From: Candidatus Aldehydirespiratoraceae bacterium
GTDB taxonomy: Bacteria > Actinomycetota > Acidimicrobiia > Acidimicrobiales > Aldehydirespiratoraceae
Direction of reading: 5' to 3'
Assembly (NCBI GenBank): GCA_965208435.1
Contig: OZ242337.1
Location: 1,516,180-1,580,179, forward strand
Length of the DNA stretch: 64,000 nt
Shown piece by piece: positions 3,211 to 15,581 of the stretch. The translations under genes and the position numbers were made by a program. Position 1 is the stretch's first letter; every line of letters starts with the position of its first letter. The notes under the pieces were generated by a model. That model ran no database searches, had not been told where the DNA came from, and was given only the letters and a program-made list of their open reading frames with translations.

Positions 3211-3897
3211 TCAAGACTCGGGGTCGCCGCGCCACGGCGGAGTACGCGGGGGATCGAACTGGACGCCCACATCCTCACCGCGGATCGCGGCAAAAGCGTG
3301 GTCAGCCCACCAGTCGGGGTTGACGGTCGCCTCGGGAAGGGCGTCACGGGCGAAGAACCCGACGTCGGAGCATTCAAGCGGATGCGGTCGCATCTCACCC
3401 CCGGTGGCACGGCAGTGGAACACCAGCGACACCAGCGGAATCCGCGTGAATCCGCGGCGCTGCCCGTCGAGAATCGATATCGGTCGGATCACCTCGCACT
3501 CGATCCCGGTCTCCTCATAGACCTCCTTGATCACGATCTCCGCCGGTGAGTAGCCGACGTCGGCCCAGCCGGTCGGGTACAGCCAGACCCCTGAATCGGC
3601 CCGCTGAATCATCAACAGCTCGTTGTTTTCGTTGCCGACCACGGCACCGATCGTGATCTTCGGTGTGACATACCCCGACACACCGGAACCGACCCGGTCG
3701 AGCCACTCCTGGACCTGCTCCTCAGGATGAAAACCGCCTTCAACGTGGGAACGGATATCCGCCGCCACAGCCAGAACCTCTTCGAACCGCTCCTGTTCAT
3801 AGAGGTTGTCGGTGAACCCGAGACCGGTCCGCGCCGTTGCCGACAGTGCCTCTGCCCAGCGCAGAAGCACCCGTTCGTTGGCTCGGCGGACACTCAC
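3211..3897 (-). CDS. NUDIX hydrolase with N-terminal Nudix_N-type helical domain
   Basis: N-terminal LLRWAEAL.A.ARTGLGFT.N.YE.ERFEE pattern, followed by a Nudix-box-like segment (SPAEIVIKEVYEETGIE). Confidence 0.8.
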   Translation of the reverse strand: MSVRRANERVLLRWAEALSATARTGLGFTDNLYEQERFEEVLAVAADIRSHVEGGFHPEEQVQEWLDRVGSGVSGYVTPKITIGAVVGNENNELLMIQRADSGVWLYPTGWADVGYSPAEIVIKEVYEETGIECEVIRPISILDGQRRGFTRIPLVSLVFHCRATGGEMRPHPLECSDVGFFARDALPEATVNPDWWADHAFAAIRGEDVGVQFDPPRTPPWRGDPES

Positions 3898-4056
3898 ACC
3901 ACAACTCTAGGAGACTGCTGGCAATTGCGTTGCCGGCTGAGCCTGTCAGAGGTGTTAGGTGTGATAAAGGGCGTGCCGGAGTCGTTGTTCCGGGGCTGGC
4001 CGCTTTGTCCACACCCAAGGCATCGACAGCTTGAGCATTGCGACAACGCTAAGCGG

Positions 4057-4689
4057 TTAATGACCTTGTTCATTAGGTTCTTCGTTATGGTCCTCTGACT
4101 TCTCCAATTCACTGTCTAACTTGCGACTCAAGAAGCGAAATATCGAGTATATTAGCCCACTATAATGGTTCTCGGAGGACAGTCTTGACCCCAATAGAGT
4201 AGATCTAAGGATTTCGGCTTTTGATATTGCCTTTTGAGCGCGCTGGTCAAGTATATTTGCTTTTTTAGATGCTCGAAGCGGATCGTCAACGATGTTACGG
4301 AATCGAACACTATATACTCTATATTGATACTCATAGTAGTATAATTCTGCCCTCATACCAAACAACCAGATTTTCCCTAATCGTTTCCCTTGAGGAGTTT
4401 CATCATGATCTGGACTCACAGCTCGCAATCGGGACCACGCGGCGGCTTTGAGTGGGAATACCAAGATACATAAAATTAACGGAACAAACCCAGTTGTTCT
4501 AGTAGTAAGGCTCGTTATGCCGGCAATTTGAACAAGTAGTATATCAGCCAGTAAAGTTGCGAATGACAAACCAAACAATACGCTTCCTAAAAAAAATGAA
4601 ACTAGTGCGATTCGATCATGAGCAAAACTGAGACGTGAGGACTCCGATTGGTAATGGTCGCTCTCAAAAACAGGGGGACGCAACACCAT
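4057..4689 (-). CDS. Hypothetical 2-TM membrane protein in an AT-rich islet
   Basis: 210 aa ORF. Two hydrophobic helices (IALVSFFLGSVLFGLSFATLL; FVPLILCILVFPL) followed by a Tyr/charged helical tail. Local GC is about 40% versus about 65% in the flanks. Confidence 0.5.
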   Translation of the reverse strand: MVLRPPVFESDHYQSESSRLSFAHDRIALVSFFLGSVLFGLSFATLLADILLVQIAGITSLTTRTTGFVPLILCILVFPLKAAAWSRLRAVSPDHDETPQGKRLGKIWLFGMRAELYYYEYQYRVYSVRFRNIVDDPLRASKKANILDQRAQKAISKAEILRSTLLGSRLSSENHYSGLIYSIFRFLSRKLDSELEKSEDHNEEPNEQGH

Positions 4690-4901
4690 TAGCTACACCC
4701 CGATTTGACCCAACTAAAGCAATTTCCTGAACTACCTGAACCACCAGTTGGTTGAGTGAAACGTCGGACGACGGTTCTTGCCACAGTAACGCATTGACTT
4801 CGTGCACACGTTTGGAGTGTGCCAAAAATACGGGCAATTGGTTTTGCCACGATTCTCTTCACCTTCCTGCGAAGAGGTCTTGCATAAGGGAACAGAACCA
4901 T
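4689..4901 (-). CDS. Possible small basic Cys-containing protein coupled to the 2-TM gene (weak)
   Basis: Stop/start overlap TAATG at 4687-4691 with the downstream gene. 70 aa counted from the internal ATG. No recognisable motif. Confidence 0.25.
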   Translation of the reverse strand: MVLFPYARPLRRKVKRIVAKPIARIFGTLQTCARSQCVTVARTVVRRFTQPTGGSGSSGNCFSWVKSGCS

Positions 4902-5073: not shown

Positions 5074-7362
5074 CTAGGCGTCTGAGGCGATGGCGGTCAG
5101 GACGGCGATCTCGATCTCGCCGAGATAGTTTTTGTCGAGGATCTTCTGGTCGTTGGGTCCACGCACATAGAACGAGTCGACGACGTCGTCGCCCAGGGTC
5201 TGCACCTTCGCCGAGAAGATGTCGAGGTCCAAGTCGTGCAGGGCTCTGGTGATGCGATACAGCAGGCCGATCGAGTCCGGCCCTCGGACCTCGATGACCG
5301 TCGCATCCGAAGACAACTCGTTGTCGATGATCACTTCAGGCTCCGATGGACGAGCAGTGGTGATCCGCTGGAAACGGTAGGTACGGGCACGCTGCAACAG
5401 TCGGGCTCGCACGGCTAGACCTCCGGCGAGCGACAGGCGAATATCTTCCAGCACCCGCTCGGGACGTTCATCAAGGCCCACACCCCCGCCGACGCGCAGC
5501 ACCTCCAACGACATCGAATCCTCCGTGTGGAGCCGTGCCCCCAGAATCTCGACGCCGTGCAGCGCCAACGCTCCGGCGACACGGGAGAACACGCCCGGAC
5601 GGTCTGCGGTGATCACTGTCAACTCGTGGCCGTCGAGACGCACAAGCTCCTCACCTCGTGCCAGCAGCTCGGAATGCTCCTCAGTCGGGAACTGCGAGGT
5701 GAGCATCGTCCCGCCGGTTCGCAGGAAATGCGCGGTCCGGTTCACCAGCCTCTTCACCAGCTCCGCTTTCCAGCCGCCCCAGGCGGCCTTGCTGGTCGCA
5801 ATCGAATCAGCCTCGGTGAGCGCCCCAAGCAACTCGAGCGTGCCCACAGAGTCGATCTGTTCAGCAACGAACCGGATCGTCTCCTCCGCATCGAGGTCAC
5901 GCCGCGACGCCACATCGGGCAACAACAGGTGATGCCGCACCAACACGCCCAACGTCTCGATGTCGGCCGGCGGGTAACCCATGCGGGCAGCGATGCTCCG
6001 GGCCAGCCCGACCCCGACCTCGCTGTGGTCTCCCGGGTAGCCCTTGCCGATGTCGTGCAGCAGCCCACCGAGCACCAACAGGTCGGGACGCTCCACACGA
6101 TCAGCGATCGCAGCCGCCTCGGCCGCGGCCTCCAGCAGATGCCGATCGACGGTGAAACGGTGATACACGTTGCGTTGCGGGCGGCTCCGATTGGGTGTCC
6201 ACTCCGGGAACAGGCGGGATATCAGGTCAACCTGGTCGAGGGCTTCGATGACCCGGATCGCCTCGTAGCCCAGAAGCAGCAGGTCGACGAAGGTCTCGCG
6301 TGCCTCATCGGGCCATTGATCGGGCATCGGCGGGGTTTCAACGGCAAGCCTGTCGAGCACGTCACGCTCGATGAATGCGTCTTCGGTGGCGGCGATGTAG
6401 GCGACCCGCAGCGGCATCACCGGGTCCTCCGAGACCGCAGCGTCCTCGCCGAAACGCAGCGTCTCATCGACGATCTCGATGCCGTGGCCGAACTCGCGTA
6501 CCCTTGGCCGCCAGCGGCGACGGGTCGAGCGGACATGGATGCGGTGCATCACCGCGTCCATGGTCCAGGCGACGGATCGGGCCGCTGAGGCCACCGCAGC
6601 CATCAACTCGTCGGCGTTTGCGTAGCCGAGCGCCGCGGAAACCTCATCCTGGTCCTGCAGCAGCAGCCGGTTGCCGGACTGCCCGCTGAGCCTGTGGAGC
6701 TCGATGCGCGCCGACAGCAGGATCCGGTGCGGTTCGATCAGCTCGCTGCGTTCGGTCGCCTCCAACAAACCCTGGTCGGCCTGATCGATCCAGTGCAGGG
6801 AGTCGAGGTCGCGCAGCCCTCCCCTCGCCAGCTTCAGGTCGGGTTCGAGCAGGAACGCCACCTCACCGGCTGCGTCGTGGCGTTCACGTACCGACTCGAC
6901 GAGCACTCCGAGCATCTTGTCGGCGTTGTCACGCCACAGATCGTGCGCTTTCTTCTCCAGTTCGTCCACCAGACGCGCCTCACCGCCGATGAGGCGGATG
7001 TCGAGCAGCGAAGTGGCCGTGTCGAGGTCTTCGGCAGCCAGGTCGATCGCTTCGTCGATGGTCCTGACCGCGTGGCCGAGCTTGATCCCGCTGTCCCAGA
7101 TCGGGTACCAGATCCGCTCGGCGACTTCAGCGACATGGCCCGAGTCGTTGTGCACCAGCAGCAGGTCGAGGTCGCTTCCGATGCTCAGCGAACCCCGCCC
7201 GTAGCCTCCCACCGCCGCCAACGCCACGCCCCGGACTTCCTCCACGCCGTCCACGACCGACTCCAGCCATGCGTCTATCTCCGCTGTGTAGGCGCGGGAC
7301 AGGTCGGTGCCCACCAGGCTCCGATCGGCGAGAAGCGCTGAGGTTGCGGGGACTGCTTTCAT
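5074..7362 (-). CDS. glnD: [Protein-PII] uridylyltransferase/uridylyl-removing enzyme
   Basis: 762 aa. Nucleotidyltransferase N-terminus (GGYGRG..S.GSDLDLL), HD domain (LLHDIGKG) and two C-terminal ACT-like repeats. Confidence 0.9.
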   Translation of the reverse strand: MKAVPATSALLADRSLVGTDLSRAYTAEIDAWLESVVDGVEEVRGVALAAVGGYGRGSLSIGSDLDLLLVHNDSGHVAEVAERIWYPIWDSGIKLGHAVRTIDEAIDLAAEDLDTATSLLDIRLIGGEARLVDELEKKAHDLWRDNADKMLGVLVESVRERHDAAGEVAFLLEPDLKLARGGLRDLDSLHWIDQADQGLLEATERSELIEPHRILLSARIELHRLSGQSGNRLLLQDQDEVSAALGYANADELMAAVASAARSVAWTMDAVMHRIHVRSTRRRWRPRVREFGHGIEIVDETLRFGEDAAVSEDPVMPLRVAYIAATEDAFIERDVLDRLAVETPPMPDQWPDEARETFVDLLLLGYEAIRVIEALDQVDLISRLFPEWTPNRSRPQRNVYHRFTVDRHLLEAAAEAAAIADRVERPDLLVLGGLLHDIGKGYPGDHSEVGVGLARSIAARMGYPPADIETLGVLVRHHLLLPDVASRRDLDAEETIRFVAEQIDSVGTLELLGALTEADSIATSKAAWGGWKAELVKRLVNRTAHFLRTGGTMLTSQFPTEEHSELLARGEELVRLDGHELTVITADRPGVFSRVAGALALHGVEILGARLHTEDSMSLEVLRVGGGVGLDERPERVLEDIRLSLAGGLAVRARLLQRARTYRFQRITTARPSEPEVIIDNELSSDATVIEVRGPDSIGLLYRITRALHDLDLDIFSAKVQTLGDDVVDSFYVRGPNDQKILDKNYLGEIEIAVLTAIASDA

Positions 7363-7537: not shown

Positions 7538-8338
7538 TCAGTACGGCCAGTCCCGTGTGGTGTGACCGAATATCCGGGTCAGGGGATACAGCTTGAGCGT
7601 CAGGGCGCCCTTGATGATGACATTGCGCACGAACCAGCCGATCTGGAGCGCCTGACGCAGCGAGTTCGTGACCGACGCGGCGACAGACATCGGTTCGCGC
7701 CGGTACTCGGCCAACGACCCGCAGCGGCCGACATAGCGCCAGTGGCTAGTCACGAAGGTCGAGCTGAGCAGCGCCAGCGTCACACCGACCGAACTGAACG
7801 AGTCGTGGATCAGCATGGTGCCGCCGTCCGGTACTCGCCCACCCCAGTCGATGATGTCTCTCCGTGCCGGCCAGAAGCGGTGCGCGCCGTCGATGTAGAG
7901 CAGGTCGATGTCGCCCTCCACGTCACCGAGGGCGTCAACGGACATCTTGCGGATGTGCGTGACACGCTCGGCGACACCGGCCTGCTGGAGGTTGGCGGTG
8001 AAGGCGGCGTGATCGCTGTCTCCGAGCTGTTGATCGGGCGCGATCTCCTGGGGGCCGCGGTCACCGCCACCGTGCGGGTCGATCGACACGATCCGCGCGC
8101 CGGCGGGGGCGGCGACGGCAAGAACGATCAGCGAACGGCCCCGGAAACTCCCGATCTCGACGATCTGAGCGCCTTCTTGAAGTTCCCATGCACGCTCATG
8201 GAGCCGCCGGGCCTGCTCATCGGTCAACCAACCCTCAACGTCGGCAATTCCGGCTAGCACGTCTGGGAAGGGTTTGCGGACAGACACCGCCAGCGATCCT
8301 ACCGGGAGGCTCGCGGGGCCGGCTTGCGCCCCACGCAC
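7538..8338 (-). CDS. Class I SAM-dependent methyltransferase (Methyltransf_24-like); start uncertain
   Basis: VEIGSFRGRS..VLA, IDPH and LLYIDGAH motifs. The listed GTG start lies inside a 48 bp repeat copy. Confidence 0.65.
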   Translation of the reverse strand: MRGAQAGPASLPVGSLAVSVRKPFPDVLAGIADVEGWLTDEQARRLHERAWELQEGAQIVEIGSFRGRSLIVLAVAAPAGARIVSIDPHGGGDRGPQEIAPDQQLGDSDHAAFTANLQQAGVAERVTHIRKMSVDALGDVEGDIDLLYIDGAHRFWPARRDIIDWGGRVPDGGTMLIHDSFSSVGVTLALLSSTFVTSHWRYVGRCGSLAEYRREPMSVAASVTNSLRQALQIGWFVRNVIIKGALTLKLYPLTRIFGHTTRDWPY

Positions 8339-8419
8339 ACCTGAGTCGACATCGTCGTCGTGGGCACCGGACTACCGGGAGGCTCGCGGGGCCGGCTTGC
8401 GCCCCACGCACACCTGAGT
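8299..8419. repeat. 48 bp perfect direct repeat x2 (8299-8346 and 8372-8419)
   Basis: ctaccgggaggctcgcggggccggcttgcgccccacgcacacctgagt is read twice, period 73 bp, in the divergent region between the methyltransferase and hyuA. Confidence 0.9.
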
Positions 8420-8441
8420 TGCCGCCGATACGGTTATTGGC

Positions 8442-10574
8442 ATGGAGGCGATTCGCACGGGCCGACGCGGCGGTGCCCGCCGGACGCGGATCGGCGCTGA
8501 CGTCGGGGGCACGTTCACCGACATCGTCGTCCAGACCGCTGACGGCGCGCTCCACTCCACCAAGGTCCTGACCACCTACGATGCCCCTGAGCAGGGGATA
8601 CTCGCCGGCATCGAGCAGCTGAGCCGGGCCACGGGCACAGATCTCGGAGAGGTCGACCAGATCATCCACGGCACCACGCTGGCCACCAACGCCCTCATCG
8701 AGCGACGCGGGGCCAAGACTGCTCTGGTGACCACTGCGGGGTTCCGCGACGTGATCGAGACCGGCACCGAGAGCCGTTTCGAGCAGTACGACCTCAACAT
8801 CGTGCTGCCGGAGCCACTCATCGAGCGCAAGGACCGCTACGTCGTCACCGAACGGCTCAACGCCCGCGGCGAGGTTCTCGTAGATTTCGACGACGACGGC
8901 GCAAGGTCGCTGGTCGAACATCTCGGCGAGCAGGGTTACGAGTCCGTAGCCGTCGGTTTTCTCCACAGCTACCGCAACGGGGGCCACGAGCAGCGCTTCC
9001 GCAGCCTGTTGAAGGAGGCGTTGAGCGATGTCTCGGTGTCGATCAGCAGCGAGGTCTCCCCGCAGATGCGCGAGTACGAACGCTTCAACACCGTGTGTGC
9101 CAACGCCTACGTGCAACCGTTGATGGCGTCGTACCTGTTGGCGCTGCGCGACCAGCTCGGCACTGTCGGTGTCGACTGCCCGCTGTATCTGATCCATTCC
9201 GGCGGCGGCCTGATGAGCGTCGAGAGCGCTGCGGAGTTTCCGGTGCGGCTGATCGAGTCGGGGCCGGCGGGCGGCGCGATCTTCGCTGCTGATCTCGCCG
9301 CCCGCTACGGGCGCGACCGGGTCCTCTCCTATGACATGGGCGGGACCACCGCCAAGATCTCCCTGATCGAGGATTTCACTCCCCGCACCGCGAAGGTGTT
9401 CGAGGTCGACCGCCGCTCCCGGTTCAAGAAGGGCAGCGGGATGCCCGTCTCCATCCCGGTCATCGAGATGATCGAGATCGGCGCAGGCGGCGGCTCGATC
9501 GCCCGGGTCGACGCCTTGGGGCAGATTCGGGTGGGTCCGCACAGTAGCGGCAGCGATCCGGGACCGGCCGCCTATAACCGCGGCGGCACGGACCCGACCG
9601 TCACGGACGCCAACCTTGCTCTCGGTCGCCTTCATCCCGAAACTTTCGGAGCTGCCGACATCGACCTCAAGCCCGAACTGGCCACCGATGCTCTCTCTTC
9701 GGGTGTCGGCGATCCTCTGGGATTGGACCCCGACACCGCGGCTGTCGGCATCTCTGAGGTCGTCGACGAGAACATGGCCAACGCGGCCCGAGTCCATGCG
9801 GTGGAGGGAGGGCGCGACCTGGCCGGGTTCACGATGATCGCTTTCGGCGGCGGCGCTCCTCTGCATGCTTCCCGACTGATCGACAAGCTCGGCCTCACCG
9901 AACTGATCGTTCCCAGCGGTGCAGGAGTCGGGTCCGCCATCGGCTTCTTGCGGGCTCCTTTCGCGTATGAGGCGATCCGCAGCTTCTACACGACCACCGA
10001 CGACTTCGACTATGTGGGCGCCAACGCGCTGCTCGCCGAGTTGACGTCGGAGGCCGAGTCGTTCGTGCGGATGGGCACCGCCACGGACTCGTCGGGTGAA
10101 CCTGAGACCATCGTTGAGCGTCAGGTGTCGATGCGTTACGCGGGGCAGGGCTGGGAGATCCCGGTTCGTCTCGAAGACGGTGACTTCGACGAGTTCGCTG
10201 CGGAACTGTTGGCGGCCGAGTTCACCAAGGCGTACCTGGAGTTCTTCGGCCGGGCCATCGACGATCTGACGATCGAGGCGGTCAGTTGGGCGGTGCGGGT
10301 CTCGTCACGCCAGGAGCCGCCTCCGCTGGTCGAGACGGTCGAGCCGACCTCCACTGCTGTGTCGGAGTTCAGCCGGGAGGTGTACGACCCCGCACTGGAC
10401 GCGCGCGTCCCCGCCGGGCTCTATCAGCGCTCGGAGCTCACCCCCGGAGATCTCGTGGCCGGTCCTGCACTGATCGTCGAGTCCCAGACGACCACCGTGC
10501 TCGGCTCGCATCACCGTTGTGTTGTCCAACCCGATGACTCTCTGCGCATCACCCGAGCCGGAGGCGGGCCATGA
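8442..10574 (+). CDS. hyuA: Hydantoinase/oxoprolinase family protein, A subunit
   Basis: IGADVGGTFTD N-terminus, 710 aa, ATGA-coupled to the B subunit. Confidence 0.85.
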   Translation: MEAIRTGRRGGARRTRIGADVGGTFTDIVVQTADGALHSTKVLTTYDAPEQGILAGIEQLSRATGTDLGEVDQIIHGTTLATNALIERRGAKTALVTTAGFRDVIETGTESRFEQYDLNIVLPEPLIERKDRYVVTERLNARGEVLVDFDDDGARSLVEHLGEQGYESVAVGFLHSYRNGGHEQRFRSLLKEALSDVSVSISSEVSPQMREYERFNTVCANAYVQPLMASYLLALRDQLGTVGVDCPLYLIHSGGGLMSVESAAEFPVRLIESGPAGGAIFAADLAARYGRDRVLSYDMGGTTAKISLIEDFTPRTAKVFEVDRRSRFKKGSGMPVSIPVIEMIEIGAGGGSIARVDALGQIRVGPHSSGSDPGPAAYNRGGTDPTVTDANLALGRLHPETFGAADIDLKPELATDALSSGVGDPLGLDPDTAAVGISEVVDENMANAARVHAVEGGRDLAGFTMIAFGGGAPLHASRLIDKLGLTELIVPSGAGVGSAIGFLRAPFAYEAIRSFYTTTDDFDYVGANALLAELTSEAESFVRMGTATDSSGEPETIVERQVSMRYAGQGWEIPVRLEDGDFDEFAAELLAAEFTKAYLEFFGRAIDDLTIEAVSWAVRVSSRQEPPPLVETVEPTSTAVSEFSREVYDPALDARVPAGLYQRSELTPGDLVAGPALIVESQTTTVLGSHHRCVVQPDDSLRITRAGGGP

Positions 10575-12184
10575 GGACCGCGGACCTTCGCAACCAGGTC
10601 ATGTGGAACCGCCTGATCTCGGTCGTCGAGGAACAGGCGCTGACCCTCGTTCGCACCGCTTTCAGCACCTCGGTCCGCGAGGCCGGCGACCTCTCAGCCG
10701 GCGTGTTCGACACCAGGGGGCGCATGATCGCCCAAGCGGTGACCGGCACGCCCGGACATGTCAACACCATGGCTGCGGCACTCGGCCATTTCATCAACGA
10801 CATCGGCCCCGAGCGCATCTTCGAGGGCGACGTCTACATCACCAACGACCCCTGGAAGGGCACCGGGCACCTGCACGACATCACCGTCGCCACGCCGGTC
10901 TTCTACAACAGCGTCCACGTGGGGTTCTTCGCCTCGACCGCTCATGTGGTCGACATCGGTGGCCGCGGCTACGGCCCAGAGGCCAGGGAGGTCTACGAGG
11001 AGGGGATCCGGATCCCCATCCTGAAGTGGGTGGAACGCGGCAAGCTCAACCGCGACCTCGTCACCGTGGTCGCCCAGAACGTCCGGGAGTCCGACCAGGT
11101 CGTGGGCGACATCTTCGGGCTGGCCGCCTGCAACGAATCCGGCAGACGGCGGCTCTGCGCCATGTGCGACGAGTTCGGGCTCAGCGACCTGAACGATCTC
11201 GCCGAGTTCGTGTTCGACCGCACCCGAAAGGCCACGATGGCAGCGCTCAGGTCGGTGCCCGAGGGTGTCTACACCAACGAGATGACCGTCGACGGATACG
11301 ATCACACGCTCACGCTGTGCGTCACGGTCACCGTTGCCGCCGACGGCATGCACGCCGACTTCACCGGCACCTCGCCGCTGTCCAAGTTCGGGGTCAACGT
11401 GCCCCTCACCTACGCCCAGGCCTATTTCACCTACGGGATGCTCGTGGCGCTGGCGCCTGAGCTTCCCAACAACTTCGCCTCTCTGGAGCCGTTCACGGTG
11501 AGCGCACCGCCGGGGGTGATCCTCAACGCCCAGCATCCCGACCCGGTGGCCGTCCGCCATGTGATCGGCCACTTCGTGACCGACCTGTGCCTCGGCGCCG
11601 TCGCTCCTGCCCTCCCTGACCGCATACCGGCCGAGGGGTCCGGTGCGCTGTGGAACTTTCAGGCGAGTGCCCGTGCCGCCAGCGCTGATGATCCCAAGCC
11701 GCCCGTGGAGCTGTTGATGTTCAACAGCGGCGGCAGCGGTGCCCGCCCCGGCCTCGACGGAATGACCGCGACCGCCTTCCCGTCGGGTGTGCGCACCATG
11801 TCGGTTGAAGCGACCGAGCAGGTCGGGCCGATCATCATCTGGCGCAAGGAGATCCGCAACGACAGCGGCGGTGCAGGTAGACAACGCGGCGGTCTCGGCC
11901 AGATCATCGAGGTCGGGCCGACCGACGGCTACCTCTTCGAGTTCTCGGCGATGTTCGACCGGGTCGCCAACCCGGCCAGGGGCCGCGGGGGCGGCAGCGA
12001 CGGAGCCGGCGGCGCGGTGTACCTCGACGACGGCAGCCCCTTCCCGACCAAGGGCAAGGAGACCGTTCCCGCCGACCGCCGCCTGATCCTCGAGCTGCCC
12101 GGGGGCGGCGGCTTCGGCGACCCCGCCGAACGAGACCCCGCCGCGGTCGCGAACGACCAGCTCCAAGGATACGTCACTGCCTGA
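10571..12184 (+). CDS. hyuB: Hydantoinase B/oxoprolinase family protein
   Basis: 537 aa. Typical hydantoinase_B stretches (SVREAGDLSAGVFD, ITNDPW.GTGHLHD). Confidence 0.85.
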   Translation: MRTADLRNQVMWNRLISVVEEQALTLVRTAFSTSVREAGDLSAGVFDTRGRMIAQAVTGTPGHVNTMAAALGHFINDIGPERIFEGDVYITNDPWKGTGHLHDITVATPVFYNSVHVGFFASTAHVVDIGGRGYGPEAREVYEEGIRIPILKWVERGKLNRDLVTVVAQNVRESDQVVGDIFGLAACNESGRRRLCAMCDEFGLSDLNDLAEFVFDRTRKATMAALRSVPEGVYTNEMTVDGYDHTLTLCVTVTVAADGMHADFTGTSPLSKFGVNVPLTYAQAYFTYGMLVALAPELPNNFASLEPFTVSAPPGVILNAQHPDPVAVRHVIGHFVTDLCLGAVAPALPDRIPAEGSGALWNFQASARAASADDPKPPVELLMFNSGGSGARPGLDGMTATAFPSGVRTMSVEATEQVGPIIIWRKEIRNDSGGAGRQRGGLGQIIEVGPTDGYLFEFSAMFDRVANPARGRGGGSDGAGGAVYLDDGSPFPTKGKETVPADRRLILELPGGGGFGDPAERDPAAVANDQLQGYVTA

Positions 12185-12266: not shown

Positions 12267-12956
12267 ATGCTTGATTCTGTGACCACGGCCGAGGGCCTCA
12301 CTGTCGTCCATCTGTTCTGCAAACGCACTGCTGCCGCTGACGACGGCACGATCGTTGCCGCAGTCGAGGCGGCGCAGGCAGCCGGGGTCCAGGTGGTGAC
12401 CGTGGCCGTGCTCGGTCACAAGGCGGAACTGTGTTTCATGGCGCTCCACCGCGAGGGCTGGCCGCTGCGGGACCTGCAGACCGGCCTCGTGAAAGCGGGC
12501 CTGGAGGTGGTGGACAGCTTCGTGTCGATAACCGAACTCTCCGAATACGCCTTGGGACTCGGCGAAGAGATGAAGAACATGCGTCTCTACCCGGAACTGC
12601 CGCCTGCAGGAAAGTCCGCCTGGTGCTTCTACCCGATGACCAAACGGCGCAACGAGAACCAGAACTGGTATCGCTTGACGTTCGATGAACGCAAGGAGCT
12701 CATGTACGAGCACGGCGCCTCGGGGCGCAAGTTCGCGGGCCGCATCGTGCAGTTGATCACGGCATCCACCGGGCTCGACGATTGGGAATGGGGAGTCACG
12801 TTGTTCGGGACCAACCTCGACGACCTGAAAGACACTGTGTACACGATGCGCTACGACACCGCCTCGGCCATCTACGCCGAGTTCGGGCCGTTCTACACCG
12901 GACTGGTCGGGCCCGTCAGCGAAATAGTCGAACGCACCCGCTGTCCCAGTTCCTAG
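12267..12956 (+). CDS. hemQ: Coproheme decarboxylase (chlorite dismutase family, HemQ/ChdC)
   Basis: WCFYPM.KRR....NWY.L....R..LM.EHG..GRK..G...Q...AS.GLDDWEWGV.LF pattern. Confidence 0.85.
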   Translation: MLDSVTTAEGLTVVHLFCKRTAAADDGTIVAAVEAAQAAGVQVVTVAVLGHKAELCFMALHREGWPLRDLQTGLVKAGLEVVDSFVSITELSEYALGLGEEMKNMRLYPELPPAGKSAWCFYPMTKRRNENQNWYRLTFDERKELMYEHGASGRKFAGRIVQLITASTGLDDWEWGVTLFGTNLDDLKDTVYTMRYDTASAIYAEFGPFYTGLVGPVSEIVERTRCPSS

Positions 12957-12984: not shown

Positions 12985-13911
12985 GTGCACCCGGACCCTA
13001 CAGAACGGCAACCATTTGTCGAGATTGATGTCAGCTCGTGGCCTGTCACAAAGGAGGAGGACCTCGGGACAAAGCCGAAGCGCTGGTTGACCAAGACTGA
13101 CACGGGCGAGAGTTGGCTGATGAAGGACGCCACGTTCAGCGAATCACAAGTCGGCACAAGCTACCGAAAGGGAGACGACTGGGCGGAACAAGTCGCTTGC
13201 GGCGTGGCTCAAACTATGGGCTTGCCGGTAGCGGAAGTGGAGTTGGCCGTGATCGATCGAGTAGGCGAGGAACCCATTTTCGGCACGGTGTGCCGATCTG
13301 TGCTCCAAGATCACGAGACTCTCATCAACGGCGACGAGTTGATGGCAGAACGCGGCATACGTGTCTCGCAACATCGCAGAGAGAGTTACACCATAGAAGC
13401 AGTCTTCAAAGCCTTGGAAGACGTGGAACCGCCCTCTTCGTTCACGAGTGATGTCACCGCATGGACAGTGTTCACCGGATACCTCACCTTGGACGCATTG
13501 ATCGGCAACACTGATCGACACGAAGAGAACTGGAGCGCAGTGAAACCAGCCAAGGCCGAATCACGACGCCGCCTCTCGCCTACATTCGATCACGCGTCGA
13601 GTATGGGGTTTCTGTTGAGCGACGAGGACAGACGACAGCGGCTGACGACGAACGACGGCTATCGCACTCCCGAGGGCTTTGCGGACCGTGCCAGAACAAC
13701 GTATGCCACAAAACCTCATCCGATTGAAGCGCTGAACGACGCTCTTGCTCTCGGCGGAGAGCCCAACCTTGACCGCTGGCTCGGGCACATCCATCATGTG
13801 GACCAGTTGCTTGAACCAATCTGGGCGATCCCTGATCACAGGATGTCGCCACCGGCTCGAGACTTCGCTGAGCGGGTACTTCGGCACAACTGGTCCAAGT
13901 TGACTGCTTGA
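12985..13911 (+). CDS. HipA-homologous Ser/Thr kinase (kinase core only, no HipA N-terminal domain)
   Basis: GTKPKRW..., LIGNTDRHEENWS catalytic loop and LSPTFDHASS motifs. GTG start. Local GC is lower than the flanks. Confidence 0.7.
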   Translation: MHPDPTERQPFVEIDVSSWPVTKEEDLGTKPKRWLTKTDTGESWLMKDATFSESQVGTSYRKGDDWAEQVACGVAQTMGLPVAEVELAVIDRVGEEPIFGTVCRSVLQDHETLINGDELMAERGIRVSQHRRESYTIEAVFKALEDVEPPSSFTSDVTAWTVFTGYLTLDALIGNTDRHEENWSAVKPAKAESRRRLSPTFDHASSMGFLLSDEDRRQRLTTNDGYRTPEGFADRARTTYATKPHPIEALNDALALGGEPNLDRWLGHIHHVDQLLEPIWAIPDHRMSPPARDFAERVLRHNWSKLTA

Positions 13912-13968
13912 ATCTGGCTAGGCTTTGTCTATTCCCCCTGTCATACCCCATCGTTAGAGTCGAATCAC

Positions 13969-14715
13969 ATGAGCGAGCAGCACTTATTCGTCACATGGCG
14001 CCACCCTGAGGGTCTGATCCATCCCGTGGGTCGTCTCACCCGGCGCGCCTGTGAGGGGTCTCAATCATTCCAGTTCGTCTACTTCAAGAACGCGGAGCAC
14101 TTGACGGAGGAAGGGTTCCCACTCCTGCCGGGCCTACCCGAACTCCACCGAGTCTACGAGGCTGAAGAACTGTTCCCCGTTTTCCGCAAGCGACAGATGC
14201 CTCGTCAGCGCCCCGACTACGGTGAGTACTTGGAGAAGCTAGGTCTCGACCTGGAGACTGATCCCTTCGAGGTCATGGCCCGCAATGAGGGACGGAAGCT
14301 GACCGACCGAATCGAGGTGTTCGCCCCGCCGGTCCGTACGAGCAGCGGTGAACTCACCACACTGTTCTTTGCGAGAGGTATCCGCCACCGAGACGGAGCT
14401 TCGGACGCCGTGGCACACCTGAACGTCGGCGATCATCTCGTACTCGTCGATGACCCCGACAACGAGGTCAACGGTCTTGCCGTCTACATCGACACTGCGC
14501 GCGGCGCGCCGATCGGCTGGGTCCCGAACTACTTGGTCAACACGGTTCACGATCTTCGTGAACTCGCTGGTGACAACGCTGTGACCATCACCGTTGAACA
14601 TGTCAACCCTCCTGAGGTTGCACCATACATGCGCCTGATCTGCCGTTTGTCCTCTCCTTGGCCCGATGGCTACCAACCCTTCTCAGACCCCGAGTTTCAA
14701 CCCATCACTTCGTAA
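13969..14715 (+). CDS. Two-domain protein: HipS/HipA-N-terminal-like region + HIRAN domain
   Basis: The N-terminal 120 aa follow the HipA_N pattern (VG.L......F.Y........PLLPGLP......LFPVFR...P). The C-terminus matches HIRAN (L.VGDHLVLVDDPDNEVNGLAVYI....GAPIGWVPNYL). Confidence 0.55.
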   Translation: MSEQHLFVTWRHPEGLIHPVGRLTRRACEGSQSFQFVYFKNAEHLTEEGFPLLPGLPELHRVYEAEELFPVFRKRQMPRQRPDYGEYLEKLGLDLETDPFEVMARNEGRKLTDRIEVFAPPVRTSSGELTTLFFARGIRHRDGASDAVAHLNVGDHLVLVDDPDNEVNGLAVYIDTARGAPIGWVPNYLVNTVHDLRELAGDNAVTITVEHVNPPEVAPYMRLICRLSSPWPDGYQPFSDPEFQPITS

Positions 14716-14783: not shown

Positions 14784-15581
14784 TCAGGCGTCGACGTAGA
14801 CGGTGAGGGATCCGCCCCGCGCGAAACCTGCGAGTTGCATACCGGCCCGCTCGGCTGTGGCAACGGCCAACGCGGTCGGGGCGCTCACAGCGACCAGGGC
14901 TCGAAAACCCGCAGCCCAGGCCTTGTGGACCAGCTCGAAACTGGCTCGTCCGCTCACCACCACCGCGGAGCCGCCGGCGGGTATCTGCCCGTCGAACAGC
15001 AGACGGCCGACCATCTTGTCGACAGCGTTGTGTCGTCCGATGTCCTCGCGGGTGGTTGTGACCGTGCCGTCGGGGTTGACCACCCCCGCCGCGTGGACTG
15101 CTCCCGTCTCGCTGAACAGAGTCTGGTCCTTGAGCATCGCATCGGGAGCACCGGCAAGAACCTGCCAGTCCAGCGCTGGTCCTGTGACGGGGTCGAGCCT
15201 GTCGGCCAACTGGTCGATCTCGTCGGTGCCGCAGAACCCGCAAGACGAGGTCGTGGCGGTGAGCCGCGGCACCGGGACGGGTGCCTTTCCTCCCGTCGAG
15301 ACGCTCACGACGTTGAACTCGCTGGCCAGCGCCGATTCGGTCTCGCAGTACTTGACGGTCAGCACGGGGTGGCCGTCGAGCAGCCCCTCGGTGTGACAGA
15401 ACCCGGCTGCCAACTCGAAGTCATGGCCTGGCGTGCGCATGGTCGTTGCCACACGGACACCGTCGAGCTCGATCGCCATCGGTTCCTCGGTGGCCAACTC
15501 CGCGTTCGACCGCCCACTGCCTGGCTGTTGAGGCGACCAGGGCCTGACCAGCCGATGCTGACTGCGCGAGCGAGCACTCAC
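14784..15581 (-). CDS. fdhD: Formate dehydrogenase accessory sulfurtransferase
   Basis: TMRTPGHDFELAAGF..TEG, SSCGFCG and GRHNAVDK motifs. Confidence 0.85.
   Translation of the reverse strand: MSARSRSQHRLVRPWSPQQPGSGRSNAELATEEPMAIELDGVRVATTMRTPGHDFELAAGFCHTEGLLDGHPVLTVKYCETESALASEFNVVSVSTGGKAPVPVPRLTATTSSCGFCGTDEIDQLADRLDPVTGPALDWQVLAGAPDAMLKDQTLFSETGAVHAAGVVNPDGTVTTTREDIGRHNAVDKMVGRLLFDGQIPAGGSAVVVSGRASFELVHKAWAAGFRALVAVSAPTALAVATAERAGMQLAGFARGGSLTVYVDA

What the first reader, a model, noticed from the sequence alone, without database searches (positions are those of the whole stretch)
12985..14715. HipA-homologous kinase without N-domain, followed by a HipS-like + HIRAN fusion protein
Seen: gene 1 (308 aa) has the HipA catalytic core (GNTDRHEENW, FDHASS) but lacks the HipA N-terminal subdomain, and no HTH HipB gene is adjacent. 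Gene 2 (248 aa) starts with a region patterned like the HipA N-terminal/HipS domain. It ends with a good HIRAN pattern (VGDHLVLVDDPDNEVNGLAVYI...GAPIGWVPNYL). The pair sits in a slightly lower-GC pocket between hemQ and fdhD. Established: in HipBST the split-off N-domain (HipS) is the antitoxin of the kinase HipT, and HIRAN domains bind DNA 3-prime ends and stalled-fork structures. I recall a survey of HipA-homologous kinases mentioning HIRAN-containing putative antitoxins, but I cannot verify that here. Inference: this is a kinase toxin whose neutraliser is coupled to a DNA-structure sensor, which could link DNA damage or phage DNA replication to growth arrest. The gene order (kinase first) is reversed relative to HipBST.
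Basis: partly seen in the sequence, partly recalled or inferred. Interest (0 to 1): 0.6.

Follow-up and report, generated by a model that had tools for sequence, protein, structure and literature searches.

The report
hipIN kinase toxin–antitoxin-like gene pair
This is a well-preserved copy of an already described but never experimentally tested two-gene module, in which a small HipA-type protein kinase is followed by a partner protein that probably restrains it and carries a HIRAN domain, so it is an ordinary member of a known family rather than a new system.

Summary
Two co-oriented ORFs (12985-13911, 308 aa; 13969-14715, 248 aa) sit between hemQ and fdhD in a lower-GC pocket. Gene 1 is a core-only HipA-superfamily kinase with every catalytic motif intact. 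Gene 2 has a C-terminal HIRAN fold (Foldseek to HLTF, E 2.5e-5). Its N-terminal domain is a very divergent HipA-N/HipS (Couple_hipA) homologue. This is detectable only at family level, and a PDB fold search did not confirm it.

The pair is not new. It is the hipIN module of Gerdes et al. 2021 and PADLOC candidate PDC-M03 (both proteins E~1e-73). No experimental study was found.

New here: across 160 related loci, the kinase is often deleted or broken while the partner stays intact (29 cases against 3). This includes at least two independent clean deletions at this same hemQ-fdhD site. An intact kinase almost never lacks its partner. That supports kinase = toxin and partner = neutraliser.

The DNA-end-sensor idea is weaker for this clade, because HLTF's 3'-OH-binding Asp94 and stacking Tyr93 are Asn168 and Val167.

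Verdict: new member of a known kind, with modest interest.

The parts
12985..13911 (+). hipI: core-only HipA-superfamily Ser/Thr kinase (308 aa), the putative toxin
   Evidence: ORF. Pfam HipA_C E 5.7e-11. PADLOC PDC-M03A E 2.8e-73 over the full length. phrog_8728 E 2e-33. A 64-sequence alignment shows a conserved N-terminus from about residue 11, which supports the GTG start at 12985.
13066..13080 (+). Gly-rich (P-) loop G28-T-K-P-K32 of HipI, close to the N-terminus because N-subdomain-1 is missing
   Evidence: G28, K32 and K47 are invariant, and T29 is present in 60/64 homologues. The public 263-aa annotation (P0121) starts at M46 and would remove this loop.
13513..13530 (+). Catalytic loop D177-R-H-E-E-N182 of HipI
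   Evidence: BLASTP to E. coli HipA aligns LIGNTDRHEENWS with LIGATDGHAKNFS (HipA D309/H311/N314). D177 and N182 are invariant in 64/64 homologues.
13585..13602 (+). Mg-binding motif F201-D202-H-A-S-S206 of HipI (equivalent to HipA D332)
   Evidence: Alignment to HipA and to CtkA. D202, H203 and S205 are invariant.
13912..13968 (+). 57-nt hipI-hipN spacer; its 3' ~33 nt are retained upstream of hipN in relatives that have deleted hipI
   Evidence: Junction alignments.
13969..14715 (+). hipN: two-domain partner protein (248 aa), the putative neutraliser/antitoxin
   Evidence: ORF. PADLOC PDC-M03B E 1.4e-73. phrog_8026 E 3e-35. AlphaFold model pLDDT 92.1, pTM 0.86. The family has 1885 clusters at 50% identity.
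13969..14343 (+). HipN N-terminal domain (residues 1-125): divergent Couple_hipA / HipA N-subdomain-1 / HipS-like domain
   Evidence: Family-level Pfam Couple_hipA hits: 11/27 members (best E 1.2e-4) and 16/111 members (best E 3.5e-7). hhalign to HipA-N: E 2.4e-4 over 91 columns, and E 7.5e-5, prob 62% over 103 columns, with controls reaching a score of at most 19.5. A confident separate model (pLDDT 89.6) had no significant Foldseek hit in the PDB.
14350..14658 (+). HipN C-terminal HIRAN domain (about residues 128-230)
   Evidence: Foldseek to HLTF HIRAN 4xzg/4s0n (E 2.5e-5, prob 1.0) and lp_0118 3k2y (target TM 0.72). PDB profile hits to 3k2y (E 0.0036) and HLTF (E 0.011). Pfam HIRAN in 92/111 family members.
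14461..14472 (+). HIRAN pocket motif N165-E-V167-N168, aligned to HLTF N91-P-Y93-D94: the stacking Tyr is Val and the 3'-OH-binding Asp is Asn
   Evidence: HMMER alignment to HLTF chains. Residue roles from PMC5773155. Residue frequencies: N168 in 79/81 clade members; in the wider family this position is Asp in 58/111 and Asn in 37/111.

Best explanation
What it is: the two genes form a hipIN-type module (PADLOC candidate PDC-M03). This is a toxin-antitoxin-like, possibly abortive-infection, cassette that was horizontally acquired and inserted between hemQ and fdhD.

Shown:
- HipI is a catalytically complete, core-only HipA-superfamily Ser/Thr kinase.
- HipN is a two-domain protein with a divergent HipA-N/HipS (Couple_hipA)-like N-domain and a HIRAN-fold C-domain.
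- The pair is conserved in this order across Actinomycetota, Cyanobacteria, Planctomycetota, Bacillota, plasmids and temperate phages.
- The kinase decays or is deleted while HipN persists, but an intact kinase is almost never found without HipN.

Inferred:
- Free HipI is harmful. By analogy with HipA/HipT it would phosphorylate an essential translation factor such as an aminoacyl-tRNA synthetase and arrest growth.
- The HipN N-domain binds the kinase in trans at the place where HipA carries its own N-subdomain-1, and keeps it inactive, as HipS does for HipT.
- The HIRAN domain supplies the regulatory input that releases or degrades HipN. The ligand is unknown. In this clade it is unlikely to be read exactly as HLTF reads a DNA 3'-OH end.
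For: Family identity:
- PADLOC PDC-M03A/B, E 2.8e-73 and 1.4e-73.
- The hipIN architecture is described in PMC8262856.

Kinase competence:
- HipA_C match.
- G28-T-K-P-K32, K47, D177, H179, N182 and D202 are all present and invariant or nearly so in 64 homologues.

HipN domains:
- HIRAN fold.
- Couple_hipA homology at family level.

Pair conservation:
- 54/74 evaluable HipN-seeded loci and 47/49 evaluable kinase-seeded loci carry both genes intact, kinase first.

Toxin/antitoxin polarity:
- HipN intact with HipI absent or fragmented in 20/74 loci, against HipI intact with HipN degraded in 2/49 (Fisher p 0.0013).
- Discordant loci overall are 29 against 3 (binomial p 1.8e-5).
- At this very hemQ-fdhD site, L001/L003 and L005 show two different clean deletions of hipI with hipN left intact.

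Mobility and accessory context:
- Low GC and GC3.
- Different neighbourhoods in other lineages.
- Cargo position next to the integrase of a 14-kb Vibrio phage.
- A TA-rich plasmid region.
- PHROG families for both proteins.
Against: - No experiment on any hipIN, HipL or PDC-M03 system was found. Toxicity, neutralisation, target and trigger are all inferred.
- For this protein alone, Couple_hipA is not detected.
- In HipA itself the homologous N-subdomain is part of an active toxin, so homology does not prove inhibition.
- Orphan hipN genes stay under purifying selection (omega ~0.2-0.3). A pure antitoxin model does not predict this.
- Some of the kinase 'fragments' are single frameshifts in long-read MAGs and could be assembly errors. 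A conservative count of large deletions, insertions and absences is still about 17 events against 1.
- The two locus sets come from different collections.
- The HIRAN pocket lacks HLTF's Tyr93 and Asp94 equivalents.
Confidence: 0.7

Rival explanations
1. HipN is an obligate positive subunit rather than an inhibitor. Its HipA-N-like domain completes the kinase fold in trans, as N-subdomain-1 does in cis in HipA. The HIRAN domain then recruits the active two-chain kinase to a nucleic-acid substrate or site. On this view the pair is a split signalling kinase, not a toxin-antitoxin.
For: - The N-domain aligns colinearly with HipA N-subdomain-1, which is part of an active enzyme in HipA.
- HipL proteins fuse all three domains in one chain (PMC8262856; phrog_26212 match).
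- The two genes are tightly co-conserved.
Against: - If HipN were only an activator, losing it would be harmless, and kinase-only remnants should be about as common as HipN-only remnants. The observed ratio is 3 against 29.
- There are two independent precise deletions of the kinase with hipN retained and under purifying selection.
- The characterised split analogue HipS is an inhibitor of HipT (PMC8262856).
Confidence: 0.13
2. HipN acts mainly as the DNA-binding autoregulator of the operon. It would functionally replace the missing HTH protein HipB, using its HIRAN domain to bind DNA, with or without direct kinase inhibition.
For: - No HTH gene is present.
- HIRAN domains bind DNA (PMC8262856; PMC5773155).
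- One source names a homologue 'DNA-binding protein' (P0072).
- After hipI deletions, the hipI start region and the hipN-proximal spacer are retained.
Against: - Known HIRAN domains recognise DNA ends or 3'-OH groups, not operator sequences.
- The end-reading residues are substituted here.
- No promoter-like or repeat signal above background was found around the genes.
- This role would not explain the conserved Couple_hipA-like domain.
Confidence: 0.08
3. The pair is a housekeeping regulatory kinase system linked to its neighbours (haem synthesis hemQ, formate dehydrogenase maturation fdhD), not a conflict or addiction module.
For: The position between hemQ and fdhD is syntenic in the six closest relatives, L001-L006. 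Only 28 nt separate hemQ from hipI.
Against: - All more distant homologues lie in unrelated neighbourhoods, including plasmids and phages.
- GC3 is far below that of the flanking genes.
- Close relatives have deleted the kinase with no change to the flanking genes.
Confidence: 0.03

Closest known systems
hipIN modules (HipI kinase + HipN putative antitoxin), Gerdes, Baerentsen & Brodersen, mBio 2021 (PMC8262856)
   Same: - A small core-only kinase (published range 279-321 aa; 308 aa here) lacking N-subdomain-1, with the Gly-rich loop near the N-terminus.
- A downstream gene encoding a HipS-like domain plus a C-terminal HIRAN domain.
- No HTH antitoxin.
- Subclades in Actinobacteria.
- Actinobacterial HipN lack most HLTF-type DNA-binding motifs, as seen here (V167, N168).
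   Different: Nothing essential differs. This copy comes from an Acidimicrobiia-type genome (closest relatives are Aldehydirespiratoraceae and Acidimicrobiaceae MAGs). Placement in the published Hip tree was not tested. The published family is itself purely bioinformatic.
PADLOC phage defence candidate PDC-M03 (Payne et al., bioRxiv 10.1101/2024.01.29.577857)
   Same: Both component HMMs match over the full length (E 2.8e-73 and 1.4e-73). The genes are adjacent and on the same strand. [quoted passage not shown]
   Different: PDC systems were nominated because they are embedded in BREX, DISARM or type I RM loci, and they are untested. Here the pair is not in a defence island but between housekeeping genes.
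HipBST of E. coli O127 (HipT kinase, HipS antitoxin, HipB)
   Same: The kinase lacks N-subdomain-1. A homologue of that subdomain is encoded as a separate polypeptide, which in HipBST is the antitoxin.
   Different: - There is no HipB/HTH gene.
- The gene order is reversed (kinase first).
- The HipS-like domain is fused to HIRAN and is much more divergent, with no Foldseek hit to PDB HipS or HipA.
- By sequence the kinase profile barely detects HipT or HipA (E ~0.4).
HipL kinases (single-chain kinase - HipS-like - HIRAN)
   Same: The same three domains in the same order. HipN matches positions 326-510 of a 547-position phage family (phrog_26212), which fits such fusions.
   Different: Here there are two separate ORFs, with a stop codon and a 57-nt spacer between them.
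HipBA (E. coli K-12 HipA/HipB)
   Same: The catalytic loop and the Mg-binding Asp align. The kinase falls in the HipA_C Pfam family.
   Different: HipA carries N-subdomain-1 in cis and is neutralised by the upstream HTH protein HipB. Neither feature is present here.
CtkA (JHP0940) of Helicobacter pylori, PDB 3AKJ
   Same: It is the closest solved relative of the kinase by sequence: E 8.7e-10 with the family profile, covering residues 55-222.
   Different: CtkA is described as a stand-alone secreted kinase with no HipN-like partner. Similarity is limited to the kinase core.
HIRAN domain of human HLTF (PDB 4XZG, 4S0N) and lp_0118 (3K2Y)
   Same: The same fold (Foldseek prob 1.0). The D-P-x-N...A-I/V...G scaffold is conserved.
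   Different: HLTF Y93 and D94 (base stacking and 3'-OH recognition) are V167 and N168. The Y72 equivalent is H140.

Membership tests
hipIN (Gerdes et al. 2021) | Kinase of the small core-only type (279-321 aa) lacking HipA N-subdomain-1, with the Gly-rich loop near the N-terminus | tested here: met
   308 aa. HipA_C covers residues 28-242, with no Couple_hipA match in gene 1. The loop is G28-K32.
hipIN (Gerdes et al. 2021) | Conserved core Hip kinase motifs (Gly-rich loop, catalytic Asp/Asn loop, Mg-binding Asp) | tested here: met
   D177/H179/N182 align to HipA D309/H311/N314, and D202 aligns to D332. All are invariant in 64 homologues.
hipIN (Gerdes et al. 2021) | Immediately downstream, co-oriented gene whose product ends in a HIRAN domain | tested here: met
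   57-nt gap. Pfam HIRAN is below threshold for this protein, but the fold match to HLTF has E 2.5e-5, and 92/111 family members pass Pfam HIRAN at E<=0.01.
hipIN (Gerdes et al. 2021) | N-terminal domain of the partner is HipS-like (homologous to HipA N-subdomain-1 / Couple_hipA) | tested here: inconclusive
hipIN (Gerdes et al. 2021) | Kinase falls in a HipI subclade of main clade XI of the Hip tree | not tested
   The reference sequences from Table S1 were not retrieved. The only indirect support is the full-length PADLOC PDC-M03A match.
PADLOC PDC-M03 | Both component HMMs (M03A, M03B) hit adjacent genes | tested here: met
   E 2.8e-73 and 1.4e-73, each over the full length.
Type II toxin-antitoxin module (functional class) | The toxin is harmful alone and is neutralised by its cognate partner protein | not testable with these tools
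   Indirect support only. Decay is asymmetric: 29 loci with only HipN intact against 3 with only HipI intact. There are two independent clean hipI deletions.
Anti-phage defence system (functional class) | Confers protection against phage, or is enriched in defence islands | not testable with these tools
   PDC-M03 is an untested candidate. In this window the neighbours are housekeeping genes. Sampled relatives lie in mixed contexts.
HipBST | Three genes, including an HTH HipB, in the order hipB-hipS-hipT | tested here: not met
   No HTH ORF is adjacent. The order is kinase then partner.
HipBA | Kinase carries N-subdomain-1 in cis, with an upstream HipB antitoxin | tested here: not met
HipL | Kinase, HipS-like and HIRAN domains in one polypeptide | tested here: not met
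   Stop codon at 13909-13911 and a 57-nt spacer.
HIRAN domains that bind DNA 3' ends (HLTF type) | Asp that reads the 3'-OH (D94) and two Tyr that pinch the terminal bases (Y72, Y93) | tested here: not met
   The aligned residues are N168, H140 and V167 (lp_0118 alignment for H140). Residue roles are from PMC5773155. N168 is conserved in 79/81 clade members. This lowers 'binds DNA ends like HLTF', not 'has a HIRAN fold'.

The most novel reading that the evidence does not exclude
HipN has a selected function that does not depend on its neighbouring kinase. Orphan hipN genes persist as intact ORFs under purifying selection long after clean deletion of hipI. They could act as stand-alone immunity or 'anti-addiction' factors that neutralise HipI kinases arriving on phages or plasmids, or paralogous copies elsewhere in the genome. 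In addition, the clade-specific, tightly conserved Asn/Val/His HIRAN pocket may read a ligand other than a DNA 3'-OH end, for example a 3'-phosphate, an RNA end or a nucleotide signal.
Probability: 0.2. Interest if true: 0.6.

Novelty: new member of a known kind. Interest (0 to 1): 0.3.

Why it matters
HipA-family kinases are the classic persistence toxins. The hipIN/HipL branch couples such a kinase to a HIRAN domain, which in eukaryotes reads stalled-fork DNA ends. If the published hypothesis is right, these modules turn a nucleic-acid cue into translation arrest, that is, abortive infection or damage-induced dormancy. This locus adds no new architecture.

The comparative data gathered here do give the first evolutionary evidence I know of for which partner is the harmful one. 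They also show that actinobacterial HipN has a remodelled HIRAN pocket and can survive as an orphan. The hemQ-fdhD site, with natural kinase-plus and kinase-minus variants in sister genomes, is a convenient natural experiment for anyone testing hipIN function.

Tried and rejected
Searches that were unavailable or found nothing:
- Single-sequence and shallow-profile tests of the N-domain found nothing: PDB phmmer/hmmsearch, Pfam on close homologues (only 1/22 members hit Couple_hipA at E 0.092) and hhalign of the shallow profile against HipA. Only phylogenetically diverse profiles worked.
- The third large homologue search, with the HipA N-terminus, returned almost only near-identical E. coli fragments. 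It gave a low-diversity profile and was poor value.
- Exact look-ups of the window proteins and of P0121 in the contig index found nothing.
- A viral-contig scan with HipI found one weak fragment. The scan with the diverse HipN alignment could not be run.
- Sigma-70 promoter and terminator scans around the genes were at background level.
- NCBIfam has no model for either protein.
- Literature searches for HipI, HipN, HipL and PDC-M03 found no experimental work.

Ideas considered and rejected:
- A link to hemQ/fdhD function, because synteny is limited to the closest relatives.
- A third diDNase gene as in PMC11706625, because none is adjacent here.
- HipBST, HipBA or HipL membership, because defining features are not met.
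Full report
**1. What is in the sequence**

Gene 1 is 12985..13911 (+, GTG start, 308 aa) and gene 2 is 13969..14715 (+, ATG start, 248 aa).

Upstream, 28 nt away, is a Chlor_dismutase/hemQ gene (12267..12956). Downstream, 68 nt away and convergent, is fdhD (14784..15581, minus strand), followed by a nitrobindin-like gene and groEL. No HTH-sized gene fits in the gaps.

The locus has 58% GC against a window mean of 62.6%. Only 3.7% of equal-sized windows are as low. GC3 is 0.65 (gene 1) and 0.70 (gene 2), against 0.78-0.89 in the flanking genes. The quoted motifs are present.

**2. Gene 1 is a complete core-only HipA-superfamily kinase**

Pfam HipA_C matches residues 28-242 (E 5.7e-11, above the gathering score), and there is no N-terminal HipA domain.

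BLASTP to E. coli K-12 HipA aligns LIGNTDRHEENWS with LIGATDGHAKNFS and FDHASS with YDIISA. D177/H179/N182 therefore correspond to HipA D309/H311/N314, and D202 corresponds to D332.

In a 64-sequence alignment, G28, K32, K47, E68, D177, N182, D202 and H203 are invariant, and T29 is present in 60/64 sequences.

The alignment also shows a conserved segment from about residue 11. The GTG at 12985 is therefore the likely start. A public annotation of the identical protein (P0121, 263 aa) starts at M46 and would cut off the Gly-rich loop.

By sequence, the nearest solved structure is H. pylori CtkA (profile E 8.7e-10). HipT and HipA chains score only E ~0.4.

**3. Gene 2 has two domains**

An AlphaFold model built on 81 homologues is confident (pLDDT 92.1, pTM 0.86).

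*C-terminal half.* It matches the HIRAN domains of human HLTF (4xzg, 4s0n; E 2.5e-5, prob 1.0) and L. plantarum lp_0118 (target-normalised TM 0.72). Profile searches confirm this. For this single protein the Pfam HIRAN hit is below threshold (20.1 bits against 24.7), but 92 of 111 diverse family representatives hit HIRAN (best E 2e-14).

- With this sequence or its close relatives, nothing links it to HipS or HipA: Pfam, PDB sequence searches and hhalign of the shallow profile against HipA.
- A separate confident model (pLDDT 89.6) finds no significant PDB neighbour by Foldseek (best E 0.25). No HipS or HipA chain is in the top 50.
- With phylogenetically diverse members the picture changes. 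Couple_hipA (the HipA N-terminal domain) is the only recurrent Pfam family: 11/27 members, best E 1.2e-4, and 16/111 members at E<=0.01, best E 3.5e-7.
- hhalign of the diverse N-domain profile against a HipA N-terminus profile aligns 103 colinear columns (HipN 7-121 to HipA 4-107). It gives E 7.5e-5, probability 62% and score 30.6. Thirty column-shuffled profiles and one reversed profile score at most 19.5.

I conclude that the domain is probably a very divergent homologue of HipA N-subdomain-1/HipS (about 75-80% likely).

**4. It is a known kind of system**

PADLOC matches both proteins over their full length as the two components of phage defence candidate PDC-M03 (E 2.8e-73 and 1.4e-73).

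PDC systems are untested candidates. They were nominated because they are embedded in known defence loci (Payne et al., bioRxiv 10.1101/2024.01.29.577857). [quoted passage not shown]

It defines hipIN as follows:

- HipI kinases are 279-321 aa, core-only, and have subclades in Actinobacteria.
- The authors propose that HIRAN senses phage DNA ends and triggers abortive infection.
- They note that actinobacterial HipN lack most DNA-binding motifs.

A 2025 NAR paper reports that some HipA-HIRAN pairs in Gram-positives are adjacent to deoxydinucleotide nucleases (PMC11706625). No such third gene is present here.

I found no experimental work on HipI, HipN, HipL or PDC-M03 in the searchable library.

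The family is large, with 1885 clusters at 50% identity at E<=1e-3. It occurs on actinobacterial and cyanobacterial plasmids and on temperate phages. The gene order is the same next to the integrase of a 14-kb Vibrio phage and in a TA-rich plasmid region.

**5. Comparative evidence on how it works**

I collected 80 loci seeded with HipN from reference genomes and 80 seeded with HipI from metagenomes. I scored both genes in each locus with family HMMs over stop-free segments.

- Both genes are intact, kinase first, in 54 of 74 evaluable HipN-seeded loci.
- In 20 of those 74, HipN is intact but HipI is absent (6) or fragmented (14).
- In the kinase-seeded set, 47 of 49 evaluable intact kinases are followed by an intact HipN.
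- The two exceptions are a contig-edge case (L113) and one in-frame ~44-aa deletion (L134).
- The contrast gives Fisher p = 0.0013.
- Discordant loci overall are 29 (HipN only) against 3 (HipI only), binomial p 1.8e-5 allowing for gene length.

Some single frameshifts may be long-read assembly errors. Counting only absences, large deletions and insertions still gives about 17 events against 1.

The clearest cases are at this same site. L002, L004 and L006 share hyuB-hemQ-hipI-hipN-fdhD with the window. L001/L003 have lost window positions ~13008-13935, and L005 has lost ~13056-13944. These are two different junctions. Each removes almost exactly hipI and keeps its first 22-71 nt and the ~33 nt upstream of hipN.

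This is the pattern expected if the kinase alone is harmful and its partner protects: the toxin can be lost, but the partner cannot be lost first. It argues against HipN being merely an activator.

One twist is that orphan hipN genes remain full-length and under purifying selection (omega 0.17-0.29 between orphans, 0.13-0.37 overall). Orphans also co-exist with intact pairs in the same genome (L026/L028, L019/L034). HipN may therefore have value beyond its cis partner.

**6. The sensor step**

HLTF D94 recognises the 3'-OH, and Y72/Y93 pinch the terminal bases (PMC5773155).

The HMMER alignment puts HipN D-P-D-N-E-V-N-G-L-A-V opposite HLTF D-P-N-N-P-Y-D-K-N-A-I, so Y93 becomes V167 and D94 becomes N168. 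The lp_0118 alignment puts H140 at the Y72 position.

These residues are tightly conserved in the window's clade: N168 in 79/81, V167 in 61/81 and H140 in 71/81. In the wider family the D94 position is Asp in 58/111 and Asn in 37/111.

The pocket is therefore constrained but chemically different. HLTF-like reading of a DNA 3'-OH is not supported for this copy, and the ligand is unknown.

**7. Mechanism and verdict**

*Most likely (0.7).* This is a horizontally acquired hipIN cassette.

- HipI is an active Ser/Thr kinase whose unrestrained activity arrests growth. By analogy with HipA/HipT, it would phosphorylate an essential translation factor.
- The HipN N-domain holds the kinase inactive in trans, as HipS does for HipT.
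- The HIRAN domain provides the regulatory input.
- Shown: domain identities, catalytic completeness, pair conservation, mobility signals and asymmetric decay.
- Inferred: toxicity, target, binding mode and trigger.

*Rivals.* HipN as an obligate activating subunit (0.13), HipN mainly as a HipB-like autoregulator (0.08), and a housekeeping regulator tied to hemQ/fdhD (0.03).

*Membership.* The defining features of hipIN and PDC-M03 are met, except that the HipS-like fold is inconclusive and tree placement was not tested. The defining features of HipBST, HipBA and HipL are not met.

*Novelty and interest.* This is a new member of a known, bioinformatically defined kind. Interest is modest (0.3). 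The architecture and the hypothesis are already published. What is added here is evolutionary support for the toxin/antitoxin polarity, the orphan-HipN observation and the remodelled HIRAN pocket.

Noticed in passing
L001, L003, L005 (hipN at 8001-8744 in each) compared with window 12985-13935: Three close relatives keep hipN between hemQ and fdhD but have cleanly deleted hipI, at two different junctions. The orphan hipN genes remain intact and under purifying selection (omega ~0.2-0.3).
   Followed up: yes
L001, L002, L003 (hipN genes): L001 and L003 share the same deletion junction. Yet by hipN synonymous divergence, L001 is closer to L002, which still has hipI (dS 0.15), than to L003 (dS 0.41). 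This suggests local recombination or recurrent deletion. It remains unexplained.
   Followed up: partly
window 12985-13119 (first 45 codons of gene 1): A public annotation of the identical kinase (P0121, 263 aa) starts at Met46. That would remove the conserved N-terminal segment and the Gly-rich loop, so it is probably a mis-called start.
   Followed up: yes
window 12985-13911 (gene 1): By sequence profile the kinase is much closer to the H. pylori cell-translocating kinase CtkA (3AKJ, E 8.7e-10) than to any solved HipA or HipT (E ~0.4).
   Followed up: partly
L015 (5770-7905) and L048 (149-4928): The hipI gene is split by insertions of about 1.4 kb and 3.9 kb while hipN stays intact. The insertions may be mobile elements and were not examined.
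   Followed up: no
L035 (3-1561 and 6351-8047): Two hipIN pairs lie within about 6 kb on one contig, with HipN copies 81% identical. Several other genomes carry two loci: L026+L028, L019+L034 and L022+L029.
   Followed up: partly
L046 (7634-7942) and L051 (3297-4004): These are in-frame internal deletions of hipI. In L051 the deletion removes the catalytic loop and the Mg-binding Asp (HMM positions ~160-229). An ORF remains next to an intact hipN.
   Followed up: partly
L163 (8001-8756; neighbour at 9013-10701): Another orphan HipN, without a kinase, sits directly upstream of a gene with SLFN_AlbA_2 and HATPase_c_4 domains. A PhdYeFM/ParE module lies nearby.
   Followed up: no
L168 (PQ189359.1; 3036-4729 in the locus): A 13.9-kb Vibrio cyclitrophicus phage (Vinavirales) carries a HipA_C then HIRAN gene pair as terminal cargo next to its integrase.
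   Followed up: partly
window 3500-4700: This is the strongest low-GC pocket in the window (0.46-0.53 against a 0.63 mean). It lies between a gene at 3211..3897 (-) and a 762-aa gene at 5074..7362 (-). It holds a 210-aa ORF (4057..4689, -) with hydrophobic, membrane-like segments. There is no Rfam match.
   Followed up: partly
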